From UHGV virus genome UHGV-0125682: a stretch of 64,000 nt of DNA; one strand, 5' to 3'. The position numbers were made by a program, and so were the translations under genes. Shown here piece by piece: positions 9,642 through 50,315 of this stretch. The first letter of the stretch is position 1. The number at the start of each line of letters is the position of its first letter. Source of the stretch: a virus. The notes under the pieces were generated by a model, which had not been told where the DNA came from, searched no databases, and saw only the letters and a list, made by a program, of their open reading frames with translations.

Positions 9642-9670
9642 TTGATCTTCCATGTTTTCAGGCTTATATT
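9642..9670 (+). promoter_or_regulatory. sigma70-like promoter for immI-like module 1
   Basis: TTGATC, 17-nt spacer, TATATT, just downstream of operator. Confidence 0.45.
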
Positions 9671-9916
9671 CATGCCGTCGTAGCAAATTCTGCGACCGGG
9701 TTTGACAGCCTGAATACTTACGCGGACAACCGCACATTTCCGATATTGCGGTATTTTTGTGTCCGTAAAACCACGTTACGCCCGAATTATGGTGGGGCGT
9801 GATGGGGAGGCTTCGGCCTGCTGGTTTCGTAAGTGCCAGTCTGTCAACCCTGTCACGTCCTGCCACCTGTTTGACAGCGGGTCGCAGGTTGTTTATCAAC
9901 TTACGAGGCCGTAACT

Positions 9917-10141
9917 ATGGTTAATGCCAATCCTTGCTCACGCCCAGAATTCATCTGGCGTTTCCACTCCCTGCAAAAACACTGCGATCACTTCGCAATT
10001 GCCGCAACCGAAAAAGAAGCCCGTTCTCTGATCCCTGATCAGTATGGTGTTCTTACTGGTCGTTTCTCTACTTCCCCACAACCAAACACTAATCCCTGGT
10101 ATCGCAATATTACCAATCCCGGAATTGCGGAGGCACACTGA
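9917..10141 (+). CDS. Icd-like small protein (74 aa) preceding antirepressor
   Basis: Paralog of 50316..50531 (shared EFIWRF and CQKH motifs); stop/start overlap with ant-like gene. Confidence 0.5.
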   Translation: MVNANPCSRPEFIWRFHSLQKHCDHFAIAATEKEARSLIPDQYGVLTGRFSTSPQPNTNPWYRNITNPGIAEAH

Positions 10142-21767: not shown

Positions 21768-21904
21768 CACAATTCGAATGTATTGATTGTGAAGGTAACT
21801 TAACATAGAATTTTCCTTGCTGGTGGGCGGTACCCACGTTTCGCTTGCTGGGCTTGATAGTCACTTATTGGTTATTGTTCGCCCACCAGCATTTAACAAA
21901 TTAA

Positions 21905-21922: not shown

Positions 21923-22498
21923 TAACGCAAGAGCACGCTTTGGCACCGTGCAGGCCAAAGTTCAGCAGGTTTAGTGCGGAAAGTGGTTTCAGAGAGAGCA
22001 CTTTGCGGAGTAAACGACAATACATGTTGAGCCAAGGAAGGTCTTTTTAAGGTGTTTATTGATGATGGTCCGGCAGAGAGTAACGGTACATGCTGCATCT
22101 AATCATCAATGCACATCTTCAACATTAAGGAGGCATAGGGATTTTTGTGGCGGTTACCTTTTGCCCTGAGTCTCCTTAATGTTGCGGTAATGCACCTATG
22201 CGGATGTGGCCTTGCATTGTGTCTTGAAAGAATGGGGTAAGGCCGGGGATATCCCCAGGGGGAGGCACCCCCGCTGCAACGAACAGCCACAGACGGCAGT
22301 CGAGTGATGGAAACGTGCAAAGACTTTAAACCTCGTTACGGCTGGCGTGGCAAACGCGACAACCGAGACAGAGCGGTGACGGGCGGAGAGAGTGCCGCAT
22401 CAAGAAAGAAGCCGACTTGTGATCCCTTTCAGCGGGCATTTGAAAGTGAATCCAGCTCAGGCAGTCGGCTTCTTTCTTGTGTGAGATGTAGCGTATTT

Positions 22499-22522
22499 GC
22501 CCATCTTCGGGTGGGCTTTTTT
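22499..22522 (+). terminator. intrinsic terminator inside ORF-poor region
   Basis: gcccatcttcgggtgggc hairpin plus T6. Confidence 0.6.
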
Positions 22523-22982
22523 AGGGTTTTCGTCATGGTTAGCGACTTTGCGGCGGTTTATAAACTGACCATTAAAGTAAATGCAAACGATGATCTGATG
22601 ATGGTAGCGGCCTAAGAAGCCAGACGCCACGGGGTATGAGTCGTCCCCCGTCAAAAAATCGACCGCAGAGTGTCCCCGTCTGTGTATTAGGGAACGGGGA
22701 GGCATAACAGGCAAGGGCGCTGGTGTGATTAACCAGATGAATGAGAAGGGTCAGGTCTTTCTGGTCAGCGCCCTTACCTGTTACGTCCCTCCCGCGTAAC
22801 AGCCATTGATTAATGGCTTTCTGGGATAACATCCTACTACGGGTATATCCCGTCATGCTGAAGGCGCTAATCACGCTGGAAGCCAGGGTTGTGCATCCCC
22901 TGTTACCGAATTGCAGCCAGGGCGCGGTGCGCCGAAAAGCATACGGAGGTGGAAGCCCTCGCCGGAGACGTACCCGGCAAGT

Positions 22983-23059
22983 GATGGTGTAGCTCAGTAG
23001 GATAGAGCAGCAGCCTTCTAAGCTGTCGGTCGGTGGTTCGAATCCACCCACCATCGCCA
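22983..23059 (+). tRNA. tRNA-Arg (anticodon UCU)
   Basis: Manual cloverleaf fold: 7-bp acceptor GATGGTG/CACCATC, TTCGAAT T-loop, anticodon loop CTTCTAA, encoded CCA. Confidence 0.85.
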
Positions 23060-23061
23060 AT

Positions 23062-23137
23062 GCCGGTTTAGCTCAGTTGGTAGAGCGCCTGCCTTGTAAG
23101 CAGGATGTCAGCGGTTCGAGTCCGTTAACCGGCACCA
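23062..23137 (+). tRNA. tRNA-Thr (anticodon UGU)
   Basis: Manual fold: acceptor GCCGGTT/AACCGGC, anticodon loop CTTGTAA, T-arm AGCGG-TTCGAGT-CCGTT, CCA. Confidence 0.85.
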
Positions 23138-23146
23138 ACACAACAG

Positions 23147-23220
23147 GTAAGGGTATTTTGCGACGTCGGAGATCGCCGTGCTTGGCAGAGGGTTCGAATC
23201 CCTACGAAGTACCCTTACCG
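23147..23220 (+). ncRNA. tRNA-like element or tRNA pseudogene
   Basis: 10-bp terminal stem GGTAAGGGTA/TACCCTTACC enclosing AGGG-TTCGAAT-CCCT T-arm-like hairpin, but spacing is non-canonical. Confidence 0.3.
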
Positions 23221-23775
23221 TTGTGATGAAGTGCAGCTCTTTGAAGCAACCAGAAGATAAGCATCTGGCTTCACAACATAAACCGCAGGAACGACCAATA
23301 AACGGTAGTCCGTATGGAGAACACCCCGTTGAGGAAGAGGCCTGGCCGGAACCGTAACCGGCACTACAACGTTGAGAACACTGGCGTAACGGGGTCATAT
23401 CCCAATCTATGAATAAATGTTGCGTTGCAGCGTGACAACCAGTGTTCTCAACATTGTGGTGAATGCGCAGGCTGATGCGCGAAAGACATTGCAGCTATTG
23501 CGGAAAAGAGCTGTTCGGCGGGGCAATTAAACGCCCGTGAGAGTCTGAAATAACCGCAAGCCGGAGATCAGCACCGGTCGCCACAATAACGGGAGAGTAG
23601 GGAGCATGGTGCTCAAGCAGTCTTGAAAACCGTCCCATTGCGCACGCGGAACAGTTAAAACAATCCTCCTTAGTGGTTAAGTCAAACATCCCGGCGTTAA
23701 TTGTTAACTGGTTAACGTCACCTGGAGGCACCAGGCACCGCAGCTTTTTTATTCGTTAAATAATGGAGTGAGAGG

Positions 23776-24012
23776 ATGCAGAACAATCCGAACAAATGTC
23801 GAACGCTATGGGTGCGGTTATATATTTATGTCGTCCTCTGTTTGATTGTGTCACTGGTTCTGTATGTTTGGCTTTTGCCAAATATGATCTCATCTGACAG
23901 CACAATACTTGTATTGTTGGGAGTCCTTCTCGCGCTCATTTACCCGGCTTTTGCAGTAGTCTTTTTTCGTGAAAAAACCAGGAAATTGATTAATGAAAAA
24001 AACGTTGATTAG
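23776..24012 (+). CDS. small membrane protein (78 aa)
   Basis: GAGAGG RBS; two hydrophobic helices. Confidence 0.5.
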   Translation: MQNNPNKCRTLWVRLYIYVVLCLIVSLVLYVWLLPNMISSDSTILVLLGVLLALIYPAFAVVFFREKTRKLINEKNVD

Positions 24013-24820
24013 TGCAGCGATTATTTTTGGTTCTTTATGTCTGACCGGATGCGACCGGGTAGAACCAGGCAATGTAGGGATCAAAGTAAATAAGCTGGGG
24101 GATGATAAAGGTGTCGGCGAAGTAGTTGGCGTTGGTCGCTACTGGACAGGCTGGAACACAGAAGTTTATATCTTCCCGACCTTTAAGCAAATGAAGACCT
24201 ATGATGATCCGTTCAGCTTCCAAATGAGCGACGGGACAACAATTGGTTACCACATTGGTGTAGCTTACAAGGTTGATCCGGCAAAAGTCACAACTGTATT
24301 TCAGACCTACCGCAAAGGCGTGGATGACATTACCGACACCGACCTGCGCCAGAAGATTGCCGACGCACTTAACCGACTGGCCAGCAAAATGACCACCGAC
24401 AAATTTATCGACGGTGGCAAGTCTGAACTACTGGATGCAGCTCTTAAAGACATCCAGGAAGAAATGACGCCCATCGGTATTCAGGTAATGAGCCTCTCAT
24501 ATGTGGGCAAGCCGGAGTACCCGCCAACCGTTATCGACAGCATTAATGCCAAAGTCACGGCGAACCAGAAAACTCTGCAACGCGAGCAGGAAGTCAAGCA
24601 ACGCGAAGCAGAAGCCAACATGCTGCGCGCAGAAGCTGCCGGACAGGCCGATGCCATTCGCACAAAAGCCCAGGCTGAAGCTGATGCCATTCGTTTACGC
24701 GGTGAGGCTCTGCGCCAGAACCCCGGCGTTATGGAGTTGGAAGCGATCAACAAATGGAACGGAACGCGACCGCAGTATATGACCAGTAATACCGCTGTTC
24801 CGTTTGTTCCGGTGAAATAA
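23993..24820 (+). CDS. plp: SPFH/band-7 domain lipoprotein (Plp-like)
   Basis: Signal peptide with lipobox LCLTGC; coiled-coil Ala/Glu-rich C-terminus typical of SPFH proteins. Confidence 0.65.
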   Translation: MKKTLISAAIIFGSLCLTGCDRVEPGNVGIKVNKLGDDKGVGEVVGVGRYWTGWNTEVYIFPTFKQMKTYDDPFSFQMSDGTTIGYHIGVAYKVDPAKVTTVFQTYRKGVDDITDTDLRQKIADALNRLASKMTTDKFIDGGKSELLDAALKDIQEEMTPIGIQVMSLSYVGKPEYPPTVIDSINAKVTANQKTLQREQEVKQREAEANMLRAEAAGQADAIRTKAQAEADAIRLRGEALRQNPGVMELEAINKWNGTRPQYMTSNTAVPFVPVK

Positions 24821-24974: not shown

Positions 24975-25050
24975 GGCCCTTTAGCTCAGTGGTTAGAGCT
25001 GGCGACTCATAATCGCACGGTCACCGGTTCAAGTCCGGTAGGGGCCACCA
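24975..25050 (+). tRNA. tRNA-Met or tRNA-Ile2 (anticodon CAU)
   Basis: Manual fold: acceptor GGCCCTT/AGGGGCC, anticodon loop CTCATAA, T-arm ACCGG-TTCAAGT-CCGGT, CCA. Confidence 0.8.
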
Positions 25051-25503: not shown

Positions 25504-26079
25504 ATGTTAACGGCGAACGATAACGCGTATGCAGAAGCAGATCTCATATTGAGTGACTTCATCGGTCAGCGGGAACGCTGGACACAAAAGCGAGAGGAAC
25601 TTTATGCCTCGTTAGTTCGCAAAGGTGTCAACATTGAAACCGCTCAAAGCGGCGATATGACGGTAGTCAGTGTTGGATTACATGGTGTGAGCGTGTCCGC
25701 AGCCAATCATGAGCCATACGTAGCGTTATCAGAGTCGATGGCAAGGCTAATTAAGTTTCTGAAGCAAACAGAAGCCAATAATGTTTTCATCGCCAAAAAG
25801 AACATCAATTTTTCTGCCGCCGTGTTCTGGATGATGAAGGGGCTTGACGCCCGCCGGGCATCATGGCCTAAAGGGAGCTATATGTCGATGTTCCGTGGCA
25901 GTATAGGCAGCAAAGAAAAGCTCGTCGAATTCCTGCCGGAAGAAGCATTCGATATTGTGGAAGGGTGCGATGTGATGATTATGCCTCGGCTGGTAATGAT
26001 GAATGGAGACTTACAGGCACAGACAGACTGGTTCGCCACTGGCGTGGATATTATCGCGACTGACTGGGAGGCATTCTGA
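25504..26079 (+). CDS. hypothetical protein (191 aa)
   Basis: GGAGA RBS; ORF. Confidence 0.5.
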   Translation: MLTANDNAYAEADLILSDFIGQRERWTQKREELYASLVRKGVNIETAQSGDMTVVSVGLHGVSVSAANHEPYVALSESMARLIKFLKQTEANNVFIAKKNINFSAAVFWMMKGLDARRASWPKGSYMSMFRGSIGSKEKLVEFLPEEAFDIVEGCDVMIMPRLVMMNGDLQAQTDWFATGVDIIATDWEAF

Positions 26080-50003: not shown

Positions 50004-50315
50004 AACACTGACTGTTGCGCCCTGGCATTATCGTGGGGTATATTTCTACGGCACCTTAGAAAAACGGGTGCCGGGATTGGAACCCCGGATAATGCAAAAG
50101 GCGACACAGACGCCGAAAGCGTCTTTTTTTGTGTCATGCCATCGCACAGCCATACGTAGCGTTTAGCTCAGAGATCAATGGTAGTGCTGGCTGGGCTGCC
50201 GAAAGGCAGGCCGGTTCCCTTTTGCGCCGGTAGTTCCAACCCAGTCAGTGCTACCGCCATTGAGATTGGAACCTCACGCGGTAGCTCCTTAAATTAGCAA
50301 AAGGAGGCTGCCAAT

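What the first reader, a model, noticed from the sequence alone, without database searches (positions are those of the whole stretch)
23147..23220. Non-canonical tRNA-like element after tRNA-Thr
A 10-bp terminal stem encloses a perfect T-arm-like hairpin (AGGG-TTCGAAT-CCCT) but the internal spacing does not fit a cloverleaf. It could be a decayed tRNA, a tRNA-derived recombination target, or an RNase P/Z-processed structural element.
Basis: seen in the sequence. Interest (0 to 1): 0.4.

Follow-up and report, generated by a model that had tools for sequence, protein, structure and literature searches.

The report
tRNA-like hairpin module in phage leader RNA
The odd "tRNA-like" hairpin after tRNA-Thr is neither a tRNA gene nor a simple dead tRNA; it is one copy of a widespread, unannotated family of swappable RNA stem-loops in the untranslated leaders of P1-like and lambda-like phages, many of which carry a genuine tRNA T-arm for a purpose still unknown.

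Summary
A 15-bp helix (23146-23160 / 23205-23219) encloses a canonical T-arm hairpin (23189-23203). CACAAC/GTTGTG extends the helix across a bulged A. The element starts 8 nt after tRNA-Thr, on the tRNA strand, in the P1 ban-operon leader.

ARAGORN (default, relaxed, intron and D-armless modes), Rfam and RefSeq annotation of a 99.5%-identical plasmid call no tRNA, pseudo-tRNA or CDS there.

Relatives keep the frame CACAAC(A)-helix-GTTGTGRTGAA but fill it with about 39 unrelated interiors. Twelve of 14 helix pairs show compensatory changes. G·U outnumbers A·C 38 to 11, which points to plus-strand RNA.

Strict T-arm hairpins occur in 6 of 39 interior types, against 0.07 expected. A laxer, position-anchored scan finds eight types where the T-arm abuts the 3' strand, giving an acceptor/T-like minihelix. 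Similarity to real tRNAs stops at the T-arm.

The same modules sit in lambdoid pL and pR' leaders, next to a conserved roughly 135-nt unit at the position of the lambda N-leader hairpin.

Best reading: a structured RNA module of the leader that acts in cis, probably in processing or insulation. This function is inferred, not shown. Rivals are a stable tRNA-mimic RNA, a boxA/Nus-linked role, and a functionless tRNA relic.

The parts
23062..23137 (+). tRNA-Thr(TGT), the gene immediately upstream; the module begins 1-8 nt after its CCA end
   Evidence: ARAGORN and Rfam tRNA at 74.9 bits
23139..23145 (+). 5' frame CACAAC plus bulged A. It pairs with GTTGTG at 23220-23225 and is conserved in nearly all family members
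   Evidence: 98% of cells paired, but no double compensatory changes, so the pairing is not proven by covariation
23146..23160 (+). 5' strand of the closing helix, GGTAAGGGTATTTTG
   Evidence: Family covariation: 12 of 14 pairs show compensatory changes
23161..23188 (+). Variable interior: a single-stranded stretch CGACGTCGGAGATC, then the small hairpin GCCGTGCTTGGC (23175-23186) and a 2-nt linker
   Evidence: Constrained fold. This part is replaced by unrelated sequence in relatives
23189..23203 (+). T-arm-like hairpin AGGG-TTCGAAT-CCCT, 1 nt from the 3' strand of the closing helix
   Evidence: 16/16 identical to the T-arm of a phage tRNA-Asn. No variation among the P1-type variants listed
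23205..23219 (+). 3' strand of the closing helix, CGAAGTACCCTTACC. In most relatives this strand reads RTGCTCTT(T/A)CC, which is boxA-like; this copy does not
23220..23277 (+). 3' frame GTTGTG plus the short conserved unit B' (GTTGTGATGAAG...CTTCACAAC) that follows the module in P1-, SSU5- and Klebsiella-type elements
23344..23363 (+). Hairpin GGCCGG-AACCGTAA-CCGGCA, a collapsed tRNA-Thr (acceptor strands plus CCGT(T)AACCGGCAC). It precedes the second module just as tRNA-Thr precedes the first
   Evidence: The same ...CGTAACCGGCAC-ACAACAGG junction occurs in other phages
23366..23458 (+). Second module of the same family: ACAAC, then arms GTTGAGAACACTGG / CCAGTGTTCTCAAC, then ATTGTG. The arm sequence differs but the frame is the same
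   Evidence: 41 copies; -38.9 kcal/mol, z = -5.48
23453..23587 (+). Full 'B unit': closing stem ATTGTGGTGA/TCGCCACAAT, hairpin GCGCAGGCTGATGCGC, and hairpin GCCGGAGATCAGCACCGGTC, whose loop is complementary to the first hairpin's loop

Best explanation
The element is a plus-strand RNA structure within the long untranslated leader of the repressor-controlled early (ban) operon. The layout is promoter around 21783-21811, then tRNA-Arg, tRNA-Thr, THIS MODULE, short unit B', a tRNA-Thr relic, a second module, the B unit, and then genes for a membrane protein, an SPFH protein, tRNA-Ile2 and a Tad2-like protein. It is the 'P1-type' member of a large modular family. Members share a conserved frame, CACAAC(A) + closing helix (arms 12-20 nt, median 14) + GTTGTGRTGAA, and carry interchangeable interiors that make modules of 33-155 nt. 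In this member, and in at least nine other interior types, the interior has a canonical T-arm stacked against the closing helix, which mimics the acceptor/T-arm half of a tRNA. SHOWN: it is not a tRNA gene. The helix is under selection as RNA on the tRNA strand. The interiors are swapped as cassettes. T-arms are enriched and positioned. The family lives in untranslated pL-, pR'- and ban-type leaders with no common protein neighbour. INFERRED (most likely function): it acts in cis on the polycistronic transcript as a processing and insulation module. The helix, about 21 bp and two turns long with a bulge, would be an RNase III-type entry site and an exonuclease barrier that separates the tRNA precursors from the downstream mRNA. 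Precedents are the RNase III hairpin of the lambda N leader and RNase III/E excision of DicF from a prophage early operon. The T-arm minihelix would give the excised or flanking RNA tRNA-like handling (TruB/TrmA recognition, exonuclease resistance).
For: Not a tRNA. RefSeq/PGAP on a 99.5%-identical plasmid annotates tRNA-Arg and tRNA-Thr, nothing at the element, then tRNA-Ser and tRNA-Ile. Operon context: P1 annotation with Pban, C1 operators, tRNAs and ban; a promoter-like site at 21783-21811. Family and cassette behaviour: the E. fergusonii, SSU5-like and Klebsiella plasmids keep the frame but have unrelated interiors; there are 96 distinct modules and about 39 interior types; P1-type and E. 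fergusonii-type modules occur in tandem in about 20 contigs. RNA helix: 92.6% of cells are paired, against 33-55% when the partner is slid; 12 of 14 arm pairs have compensatory changes; 0 of 500 shuffles reach the observed values. G.U 38 versus A.C 11, and U.G is the commonest pair at one position. T-arm: 6 of 39 types against 0.07 expected (maximum 2 in 2000 shuffles), 2.16 per kb against 0.15 per kb background, all with a G-C closing pair. In 8 independent types the T-arm ends 14-18 nt before the GTTGTG anchor, and in 2 types it abuts the 5' strand. Leader location elsewhere: downstream of cI in an Stx2 phage, between pR'/qut and holin in HK629 and HK633, and at the site of the lambda N-leader hairpin. 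No shared neighbouring protein. No U-run follows the helix, so it is not an intrinsic terminator. Precedent for RNase III/E processing of a prophage early-operon RNA: bioRxiv 10.1101/2023.04.14.536235.
Against: No cleavage, transcript-end or expression data were available, so the processing role is inference from helix length and position. The module finder required a paired stem and accepted G.U as a pair; pairedness is therefore partly by construction, and the G.U excess is partly biased. Only the compensatory changes and the conserved U.G position are independent evidence. Many family members sit far from any tRNA (14 of 17 other loci), so tRNA 3'-end processing cannot be the general role. 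A plain processing site would not need a T-arm or 39 different interiors, which hints at interior-specific, possibly trans-acting, functions. GTTGTG is shared with the closing stem of the next unit, so alternative pairings are possible. CRISPRi knock-down of the overlapping P1 features (trnT, plp) showed no plating defect (PMC10695390).
Confidence: 0.45

Rival explanations
1. A stable, trans-acting tRNA-mimic RNA. The module would be excised from the leader and accumulate as a tRNA-like small RNA. Its helix would bind a protein and its interior would be the effector, as in Y RNA. It could act as a decoy or sponge for a tRNA-binding host factor or a tRNA-targeting defence nuclease, in an operon that already carries counter-defence cargo.
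For: Sequence-conserved helix with hypervariable interior, the Y-RNA logic. Positioned canonical T-arms. The operon carries phage tRNAs and a Tad2-like anti-Thoeris gene. The frame motif CACAACA equals the GcvB R1 target consensus used by the prophage anti-sRNA AgvB (PMC4104026).
Against: No expression data. No promoter or terminator of its own. No partner protein co-occurs. The defining YrlA features are absent. No defence system that targets T-arms was identified here.
Confidence: 0.2
2. Part of a Nus-factor (boxA-type) antitermination device that protects the 2.2-kb untranslated leader from Rho. The 3' strand of the helix would be a boxA, and the following GTTGTGGTGAAT plus hairpin would complete a nut-like site.
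For: 20 of 34 family arms read YGCTCTT(T/A), and the consensus CAGTGCTCTTTCC resembles the rrn leader CACTGCTCTTTAACAA (rrn sequence from my own knowledge) and lambda boxA CGCTCTTAA (read). Many members keep TGCTCTTT at the cost of a U.U mismatch in the helix (pair 11-38: 11 unpaired cells). Canonical boxA and boxB sites precede the B unit in lambdoid contigs, and CGCTCTTTTTACAA precedes a module in the Stx2 phage leader. Long untranslated RNAs such as CRISPR arrays are known to use boxA against Rho (PMC7665894).
Against: This very element lacks the boxA core (GTACCCTTACC), as do the Klebsiella (TGCCCTT) and Stx2a_1447 (TGCTATC) copies. The arm changes are compensated, so the helix rather than the sequence is selected. 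boxA acts single-stranded, but here it would be sequestered in a helix of 13 bp or more. The arm families may be homologous, so the similarity is not independent evidence.
Confidence: 0.12
3. A functionless relic: a tRNA (for example a tRNA-Asn-like gene) that lost its D and anticodon arms by deletion and now persists only as a hairpin.
For: The T-arm is 16/16 identical (20/22 with the variable loop) to the tRNA-Asn of locus L297. That tRNA is also the only one of 116 whose acceptor 5' strand (GGTGAGG) is within one mismatch of GGTAAGG, and it has the same G after the 3' strand. A clear collapsed tRNA-Thr sits 200 nt downstream, so tRNA decay does happen in this leader.
Against: The 5' part shows no significant similarity (39 of 300 shuffles). 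No relative has an intact tRNA in the slot. The helix is 15 bp rather than 7, and it is conserved with covariation across about 39 interior types, most of which have no T-arm. The positioned enrichment of T-arms across unrelated interiors argues for selection. The element is near-invariant in hundreds of P1-like plasmids.
Confidence: 0.08
4. A DNA-level element: an inverted repeat acting as a recombination or cassette-exchange site, or as a protein-binding palindrome.
For: Conserved inverted-repeat frames around swapped interiors. The arm AATGCTCTTACC loosely resembles the P1 C1 operator ATTGCTCTAATAAATTT (operator sequence from my own knowledge).
Against: G.U 38 versus A.C 11, and a position whose commonest pair is U.G, which would be an A.C mismatch in DNA or on the other strand. 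The family occurs in lambdoid phages that lack C1. No recombinase is associated.
Confidence: 0.07
5. It is simply the antisense of the coding gene plp (putative lipoprotein), as annotated in P1.
For: The P1 record annotates plp on the minus strand across this region. A minus-strand open frame persists in the same frame in many variants.
Against: The P1 plp CDS overlaps tRNA-Thr in antisense by 30 nt. The frame length jumps between 81 and 152 aa among close relatives as modules are swapped. There is no Pfam hit. PGAP calls no CDS there in RefSeq plasmids. The covariation is that of an RNA helix, with G.U pairs on the plus strand.
Confidence: 0.03

Closest known systems
tRNA (Rfam RF00005) and tRNA pseudogenes
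   Same: A canonical T-arm (G-C closing pair, TTCGAAT loop) joined almost directly to the 3' strand of a terminal helix. It lies in a tRNA array on the tRNA strand. The T-arm is identical to that of a phage tRNA-Asn.
   Different: No D arm and no anticodon arm. The terminal helix is 15 bp plus a 6-bp extension, not 7 bp. There is no CCA or discriminator context. No tRNA finder or model detects it. Relatives have non-tRNA interiors.
Bacterial Y RNAs (YrlA/Yrn1): a terminal helix plus a tRNA-like domain
   Same: The architecture is similar: a long helix formed by the 5' and 3' ends encloses a module with a T-arm, and the build is modular. YrlA T-arms are modified by TruB, and some YrlA RNAs are cut by RNase P (PMC4201824).
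   Different: No GNCGAA(N)G Ro-binding motif, no D-arm, and no Ro60/TROVE gene nearby. The Rfam YrlA model hits only the tRNA-Arg/tRNA-Thr junction, not the element.
Lambda N-leader RNase III hairpin, and RNase III/E excision of DicF from the Qin dicBF operon
   Same: Long helices in the untranslated 5' part of a repressor-controlled phage early operon. The conserved B unit that follows these modules occupies the N-leader hairpin position in lambdoid contigs and shares related closing strands (GTGTGTG.../...CACACAC versus GTTGTGGTG.../...CACCACAAC). P1's leader also has a dicF-like region.
   Different: Cleavage of this element has not been shown. The lambda hairpin has no T-arm and is not a swappable cassette.
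P1 C4 RNA precursor and T4 'species 1/2' stable RNAs: non-tRNA RNAs handled by the tRNA-processing machinery (own knowledge)
   Same: Phage-encoded structured RNAs that are co-transcribed with other genes, or with tRNAs, and matured by tRNA-processing enzymes.
   Different: No sequence or model similarity. The C4 model hits elsewhere in the window (9785-9870 and 50174-50261). There is no RCCA 3' context here.
nut sites / boxA (lambda, rrn, CRISPR leaders)
   Same: Most family members carry YGCTCTT(T/A) in the 3' arm, followed by a spacer and a conserved hairpin, all inside long untranslated transcripts.
   Different: The boxA core is absent in this copy, and in the family it is base-paired. 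True nut sites coexist with the B unit in lambdoid contigs.

Membership tests
tRNA gene (RF00005) | Cloverleaf detectable by tRNA finders or a covariance model | tested here: not met
   ARAGORN in default, -ps, -ps90, -ps80, -i and -mt modes gives 0 genes. No RF00005 hit at E <= 10. PGAP annotates nothing there in a 99.5%-identical RefSeq plasmid.
tRNA gene (RF00005) | 7-bp acceptor stem, D arm, and a 5-bp/7-nt anticodon arm | tested here: not met
   The terminal helix is 15 bp plus a 6-bp extension. The interior of 44 nt holds only a 12-nt hairpin and the T-arm.
tRNA gene (RF00005) | T-arm with a G53-C61 pair and a T54-T55-C56-R57-A58 loop | tested here: met
   AGGG-TTCGAAT-CCCT at 23189-23203, identical to a phage tRNA-Asn T-arm.
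tRNA pseudogene | Alignment along its length to an intact tRNA, or an intact tRNA at the same site in relatives | tested here: not met
   Similarity is limited to 16-22 nt of the T-arm, and the 5' part is not significant. Relatives have unrelated interiors.
YrlA / bacterial Y RNA (RF02553) | GNCGAA(N)G motif near the 5' end, and near-invariant T and D stem-loops | tested here: not met
   No such motif or D-arm in 23139-23225. The YrlA model (24.4 bits against a gathering score of 69) matches 23027-23087, the junction of the two tRNAs, and not the element. Criteria taken from PMC4201824.
YrlA / bacterial Y RNA (RF02553) | Encoded within about 4 kb of a Ro60 (TROVE) gene | tested here: not met
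   The larger neighbouring ORFs tested within about 3 kb are a coiled-coil protein, a membrane protein, an SPFH protein and a Tad2-like protein. Not every ORF within 4 kb was scanned. P1 annotation lists no TROVE protein in the region.
lambda-type nut site / boxA | Single-stranded boxA core (Y)GCUCUU(U)A | tested here: not met
   The 3' arm here is CGAAGTACCCTTACC and it is base-paired. At family level, 20 of 34 arms have YGCTCTT.
RNase III processing site (lambda N-leader / T7 type) | dsRNA helix of about two turns (>= ~20 bp), often with an internal bulge | tested here: met
   Predicted 6 bp + bulged A + 15 bp. Family arm length has a median of 14 nt and a range of 12-20, plus the 5-6 bp frame.
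RNase III processing site (lambda N-leader / T7 type) | RNase III-dependent cleavage | not testable with these tools
   No transcript-end data are available.
Intrinsic terminator | GC-rich hairpin followed by a U-run | tested here: not met
   The helix is followed by GTTGTGATGAAG. The terminator scan lists nothing at 23139-23230.
Leader-module family defined here (no public name) | Frame CACAAC(A) - helix (arms of at least 12 nt) - GTTGTGRTGAA on the operon's sense strand in an untranslated phage leader | tested here: met
   The P1-type member appears as row L127_P1type of alignment A2.

The most novel reading that the evidence does not exclude
Temperate enterobacterial phages (P1-like, SSU5-like, lambdoid, Stx phages) embed in their early and late leaders a library of interchangeable RNA cassettes. 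One subclass of these consists of tRNA acceptor/T-arm mimics. They would be released from the leader and act in trans, for example as decoys or scaffolds for tRNA-binding host or defence factors, as part of the counter-defence cargo (phage tRNAs, Tad2) of the same operons. That would be a new class of phage tRNA-mimic regulatory RNA, present in more than half of E. coli genomes yet unannotated.
Probability: 0.15. Interest if true: 0.85.

Novelty: new variant of a known kind. Interest (0 to 1): 0.6.

Why it matters
If the reading is right, 2-kb stretches of "non-coding" DNA are arrays of selected, modular RNA structures. These stretches lie downstream of phage repressor-controlled and antiterminated promoters. 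Sequences similar to one such leader occur in 3223 of 5426 complete E. coli genomes, and they are mostly unannotated or carry doubtful ORFs such as plp. This would correct the P1 annotation, where plp runs antisense to a tRNA. It would define at least two RNA families that are absent from Rfam. It would also give a concrete handle on three open questions: how phages transcribe and process long untranslated, tRNA-bearing leaders in the face of Rho and RNases; why tRNA T-arms are repeatedly recruited into non-tRNA RNAs; and how RNA cassettes are exchanged between unrelated phages.

Tried and rejected
1. tRNA or pseudo-tRNA calls with ARAGORN in relaxed, intron and D-armless modes, and with Rfam at E <= 10: nothing.

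2. An anticodon-arm reading of GCGAC-GTCGGAG-ATCGC: it needs a C.A closing mismatch, it does not appear in any predicted structure, and it is not conserved, so it was dropped.

3. Y-RNA/YrlA membership: the defining motif, the D-arm and a Ro60 neighbour are all absent.

5. Literature searches by sequence (GCGCAGGCTGATGCGC as DNA and as RNA), for the P1 ban operon with tRNA, and for tRNA-like elements in lambdoid leaders found no description of these modules. The AgvB/AsxR and Pas sRNAs are different: they are terminator-bearing sRNAs.

6. HK022 put RNA as an analogue of the B unit: the paper text gave no sequence, so it was not compared.

7. Integron attC analogy (RYYYAAC/GTTRRRY): a poor match and no integrase, so it was dropped.

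8. A conserved protein partner downstream of the leaders: none. The neighbours are phrog_204 + DUF2303 in some loci and a membrane protein + SPFH here.

9. Kissing-loop covariation in the B unit: only one clear compensatory example was seen, by eye (GACTGA with TCAGTA). The script mostly recovered the invariant GGCTGA/TCAGC pair, so this remains a lead.
Full report
**1. What is there**

The window is a P1-like phage-plasmid. Positions 22900-23400 are 96% identical to P1, up to 99.6% identical to sequenced plasmids, and are covered at 80% or more in 536 plasmid records.

ARAGORN and Rfam find tRNA-Arg(TCT) at 22983-23059, tRNA-Thr(TGT) at 23062-23137 and tRNA-Met/Ile2(CAT) at 24975-25050.

The finding lies 8 nt after tRNA-Thr.
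- GGTAAGGGTA is at 23146-23155 and TACCCTTACC at 23210-23219.
- The helix runs on to 15 bp (23146-23160 / 23205-23219).
- It is extended across a bulged A by CACAAC (23139-23144) pairing with GTTGTG (23220-23225).
- AGGG-TTCGAAT-CCCT is at 23189-23203.

The 88-nt stretch folds at -37.8 kcal/mol, with z = -4.67. The T-arm hairpin is not in the MFE structure, but it lies 1.1 kcal/mol above it and has about 25% ensemble probability.

**2. It is not a tRNA gene, and not a CDS**

- ARAGORN finds nothing in relaxed (-ps, -ps80), intron and D-armless modes.
- The Rfam tRNA model gives no hit even at E <= 10. The best hits over the element are noise, such as mascRNA at 14.2 bits.
- RefSeq annotation of a 99.5%-identical plasmid lists tRNA-Arg and tRNA-Thr, nothing at the element, then tRNA-Ser and tRNA-Ile.
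- P1's own record places the minus-strand ORF plp ("putative lipoprotein") over it. That ORF overlaps tRNA-Thr in antisense.
- The open frame varies from 81 to 152 aa among close relatives, has no Pfam hit, and is not called by PGAP.

In P1 the region lies inside the C1-controlled ban operon: Pban, a dicF-like region, tRNA1, tRNA2, [this region], tciABC, tRNA-Ile, ban. Here a promoter-like site sits at 21783-21811. About 2.2 kb then follows with no convincing ORF, up to a membrane-protein gene and an SPFH gene.

**3. Relatives show a module, not a mutated tRNA**

I aligned the window with P1, an E. fergusonii plasmid and SSU5-like E. coli and Klebsiella plasmids. The flanks and the helix are conserved, with compensatory changes (GGGTA/TACCC, GAGCA/TGCTC, GGGCA/TGCCC, GATCA/TGATC). 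The interior is replaced wholesale. The T-arm hairpin is found only in P1 and the window.

From these loci I extracted 96 distinct modules falling into about 39 interior types. All have CACAAC(A), helix arms of 12-20 nt (median 14) and GTTGTGRTGAA, with module lengths of 33-155 nt. P1-type and E. fergusonii-type modules occur in tandem in about 20 contigs, so cassettes are duplicated and exchanged.

**4. The helix is selected as RNA on the tRNA strand**

I built an arms-only alignment of 34 types (A2) and counted pairs:
- 92.6% of cells are paired, against 33-55% when the partner is slid by 1-3 columns.
- 12 of 14 arm pairs have compensatory changes.
- No shuffle out of 500 reaches the observed values.

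Caveat: modules were collected by requiring a stem, so pairedness is partly by construction. The compensatory changes are the independent evidence.

G.U cells outnumber A.C cells 38 to 11, and at one position U.G is the commonest pair. This fits an RNA helix on the plus strand, not DNA or the minus strand. The finder's acceptance of G.U as a pair inflates this ratio somewhat.

The CACAAC/GTTGTG extension is 98% paired but shows no double changes, so it is not proven. GTTGTG can also close the following unit.

**5. The T-arm is a recurrent, positioned feature**

I defined a strict T-arm as a stem of at least 4 bp with a TTCRANN loop. Such hairpins occur in 6 of 39 interior types (7 hairpins). 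Shuffled interiors give 0.07 on average, with a maximum of 2 in 2000 shuffles. The density is 2.16 per kb, against 0.15 per kb in all held phage DNA, real tRNAs included. All seven have the G-C closing pair.

Anchoring on the frame, a laxer definition (stem of at least 3 bp, loop T[T/G]CRANN, G-C closing pair) finds eight independent interior types, with different arms, whose T-arm ends 14-18 nt before GTTGTG. That is 1-4 nt from the 3' strand of the helix, the tRNA topology. In two further types the T-arm abuts the 5' strand.

**6. Is it tRNA-derived?**

Against 116 distinct phage tRNAs, similarity is confined to the T-arm. It is 16/16 (20/22 with part of the variable loop) to the tRNA-Asn of locus L297. 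That tRNA is also the only one whose acceptor 5' strand (GGTGAGG) is within one mismatch of GGTAAGG. This is a post-hoc hint of ancestry. The 5' part is not significant: 39 of 300 shuffles score as well. A tRNA-derived T-arm is therefore plausible, but a decayed whole tRNA is not supported.

A genuine collapsed tRNA-Thr does exist 200 nt downstream (23344-23363, GGCCGG-AACCGTAA-CCGGCA). It precedes the second module exactly as tRNA-Thr precedes the first. The same junction, CGTAACCGGCAC-ACAACAGG, recurs in other phages.

**7. Wider context**

Each module is followed by a conserved unit. In the window these are:
- a short B' unit at 23220-23277;
- a full B unit at 23453-23587, with closing stem ATTGTGGTGA/TCGCCACAAT, hairpin GCGCAGGCTGATGCGC, and hairpin GCCGGAGATCAGCACCGG whose loop is complementary to the first hairpin's loop.

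The 21-mer at the start of the B unit occurs in at least 120 more IMG/VR contigs and in 131 phage records, including Stx2 phages, HK629, HK633, D6 and P7. Its locations:
- downstream of cI in the pL leader of an Stx2 phage;
- between pR'/qut and holin in HK629 and HK633;
- directly after boxA-boxB nut sites in lambdoid contigs, at the place of the lambda N-leader hairpin.

Sequences similar to one such leader occur in 3223 of 5426 complete E. coli genomes, and most carry no annotation. No Rfam family matches the modules or B units at E <= 0.05 in five further loci. Downstream genes differ between loci (phrog_204 + DUF2303, versus membrane protein + SPFH), so there is no common protein partner. 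Fourteen of 17 non-P1 loci have no tRNA nearby.

**8. Mechanism**

Shown: this is a conserved plus-strand RNA helix with an interchangeable interior and a tRNA-type T-arm, located inside long untranslated leaders of repressor-controlled or antiterminated phage operons.

Inferred, and preferred (about 0.45): a processing and insulation module that acts in cis.
- The bulged helix of about 21 bp has the size of an RNase III substrate.
- It sits at the boundary between the tRNA precursors and the downstream mRNA.
- Its companion unit occupies the site of the lambda N-leader RNase III hairpin (the RNase III role there is from established lambda literature, cited from my own knowledge).
- RNase III/E excision of DicF from a prophage early operon is documented.
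- The T-arm would confer tRNA-like handling or stability.

Rivals, in short:
- A released tRNA-mimic RNA acting in trans (about 0.2). This is attractive because the operon also carries phage tRNAs and a Tad2-like anti-Thoeris gene, and because the CACAACA frame equals the GcvB target motif used by the prophage anti-sRNA AgvB.
- A boxA/Nus antitermination role (about 0.12). Twenty of 34 arms read YGCTCTT, and many keep TGCTCTTT at the cost of a mismatch. But this copy lacks the core, and in the family the core is base-paired.
- A functionless relic (about 0.08).
- A DNA-level repeat (about 0.07).
- plp coding (about 0.03).

CRISPRi of the overlapping P1 features gave no plating defect in the laboratory. 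This suits an accessory role.

**9. Verdict**

The element is tRNA-like in its T-arm/helix half, but it is a member of an apparently undescribed family of modular leader RNA elements, not a tRNA or a simple pseudogene. Its function remains inferred. It is best classed as a new variant of a known kind, namely tRNA-like structural modules embedded in larger RNAs. Its interest is moderate to high, because the family is widespread, unannotated and experimentally tractable.

Noticed in passing
window 23453-23587 (also 23220-23277): A conserved 'B unit' of about 135 nt follows the modules. It has a closing stem ATTGTGGTGA/TCGCCACAAT and two hairpins with complementary loops (GGCUGAU and AUCAGC), which may form a kissing interaction. 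Its first 21 nt occur exactly in at least 120 further IMG/VR contigs and in 131 phage records. In lambdoid contigs it sits where the lambda N-leader RNase III hairpin is. It is not in Rfam.
   Followed up: partly
window 23344-23363: The hairpin GGCCGG-AACCGTAA-CCGGCA is a collapsed tRNA-Thr: the acceptor strands and CCGT(T)AACCGGCAC are retained. It directly precedes the second module. The same relic junction precedes modules in other phages (for example L026 and L100).
   Followed up: partly
window 23366-23458: A second module of the same family with quite different arms (GTTGAGAACACTGG / CCAGTGTTCTCAAC) but the same ACAAC...ATTGTG frame. It is very stable (z = -5.48) and is present in 41+ held loci.
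   Followed up: partly
family-wide; L360 2698-2712; L119 (+ strand, ~10010-10022, about 60 nt upstream of the B-motif at 10069): boxA-like sequences recur in these leaders. The 3' arm reads YGCTCTT(T/A) in 20 of 34 module types. CGCTCTTTTTACAA lies just before a module in the Stx2a_1447 pL leader. A perfect rrn-type TGCTCTTTAACAA lies upstream of a B unit in L119. This suggests Nus-factor antitermination of these untranslated leaders.
   Followed up: partly
window 22983-23059: The first tRNA of the cluster is tRNA-Arg(TCT) here, whereas P1 has tRNA-Asn(GTT) at the same position. Relatives add tRNA-Tyr and tRNA-Ser. The tRNA set is itself a swappable cargo.
   Followed up: no
window 25504-26079 and 23993-24820: The operon carries a Tad2-like (Thoeris anti-defence) gene (PF11195, E = 2.8e-9). 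It also carries an SPFH/Band-7 gene in place of P1's tciABC. The early ban-type operon looks like a counter-defence and accessory cargo site.
   Followed up: partly
window 9664-9870 and 50051-50261: The window holds two C4 antisense RNA genes (76.7 and 69.6 bits). One has its a1/b1 target element, the other is preceded by an isrK-like RNA. As I recall, P1 has only one c4 locus.
   Followed up: no
window 22403-22525 and 22510-22615: Inside the leader, a long hairpin (AAGAAAGAAGCCGACT.../...AGTCGGCTTCTTTCTT) is followed by a strong terminator-like hairpin plus T-run (22499-22525). Just after it there is a weak permuted-tmRNA hit (25.4 bits, E = 0.02). A similar weak hit lies upstream of a module in L259 (30.7 bits).
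   Followed up: no
window 23139-23145 and every module frame: The frame motif (A)CACAACA equals the GcvB R1 target consensus, which the prophage anti-sRNA AgvB uses to sponge GcvB (PMC4104026). The partner GTTGTG resembles the GcvB seed itself.
   Followed up: no
P1 record AF234173.1 69153-69530 (L001 2708-3085): The annotated P1 gene plp overlaps tRNA-Thr in antisense and spans the two RNA modules, so it is probably not a real gene. In E. coli K-12, the e14 ORF ymfH likewise overlaps a homologue of the leader.
   Followed up: partly
L128-L207 (genome-contig scan): The 17-mer hit one sponge-symbiont MAG (Candidatus Poriferihabitaceae, CBDEFQ01...) more than 15 times on several contigs. This suggests an unrelated high-copy repeat in that genome.
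   Followed up: no
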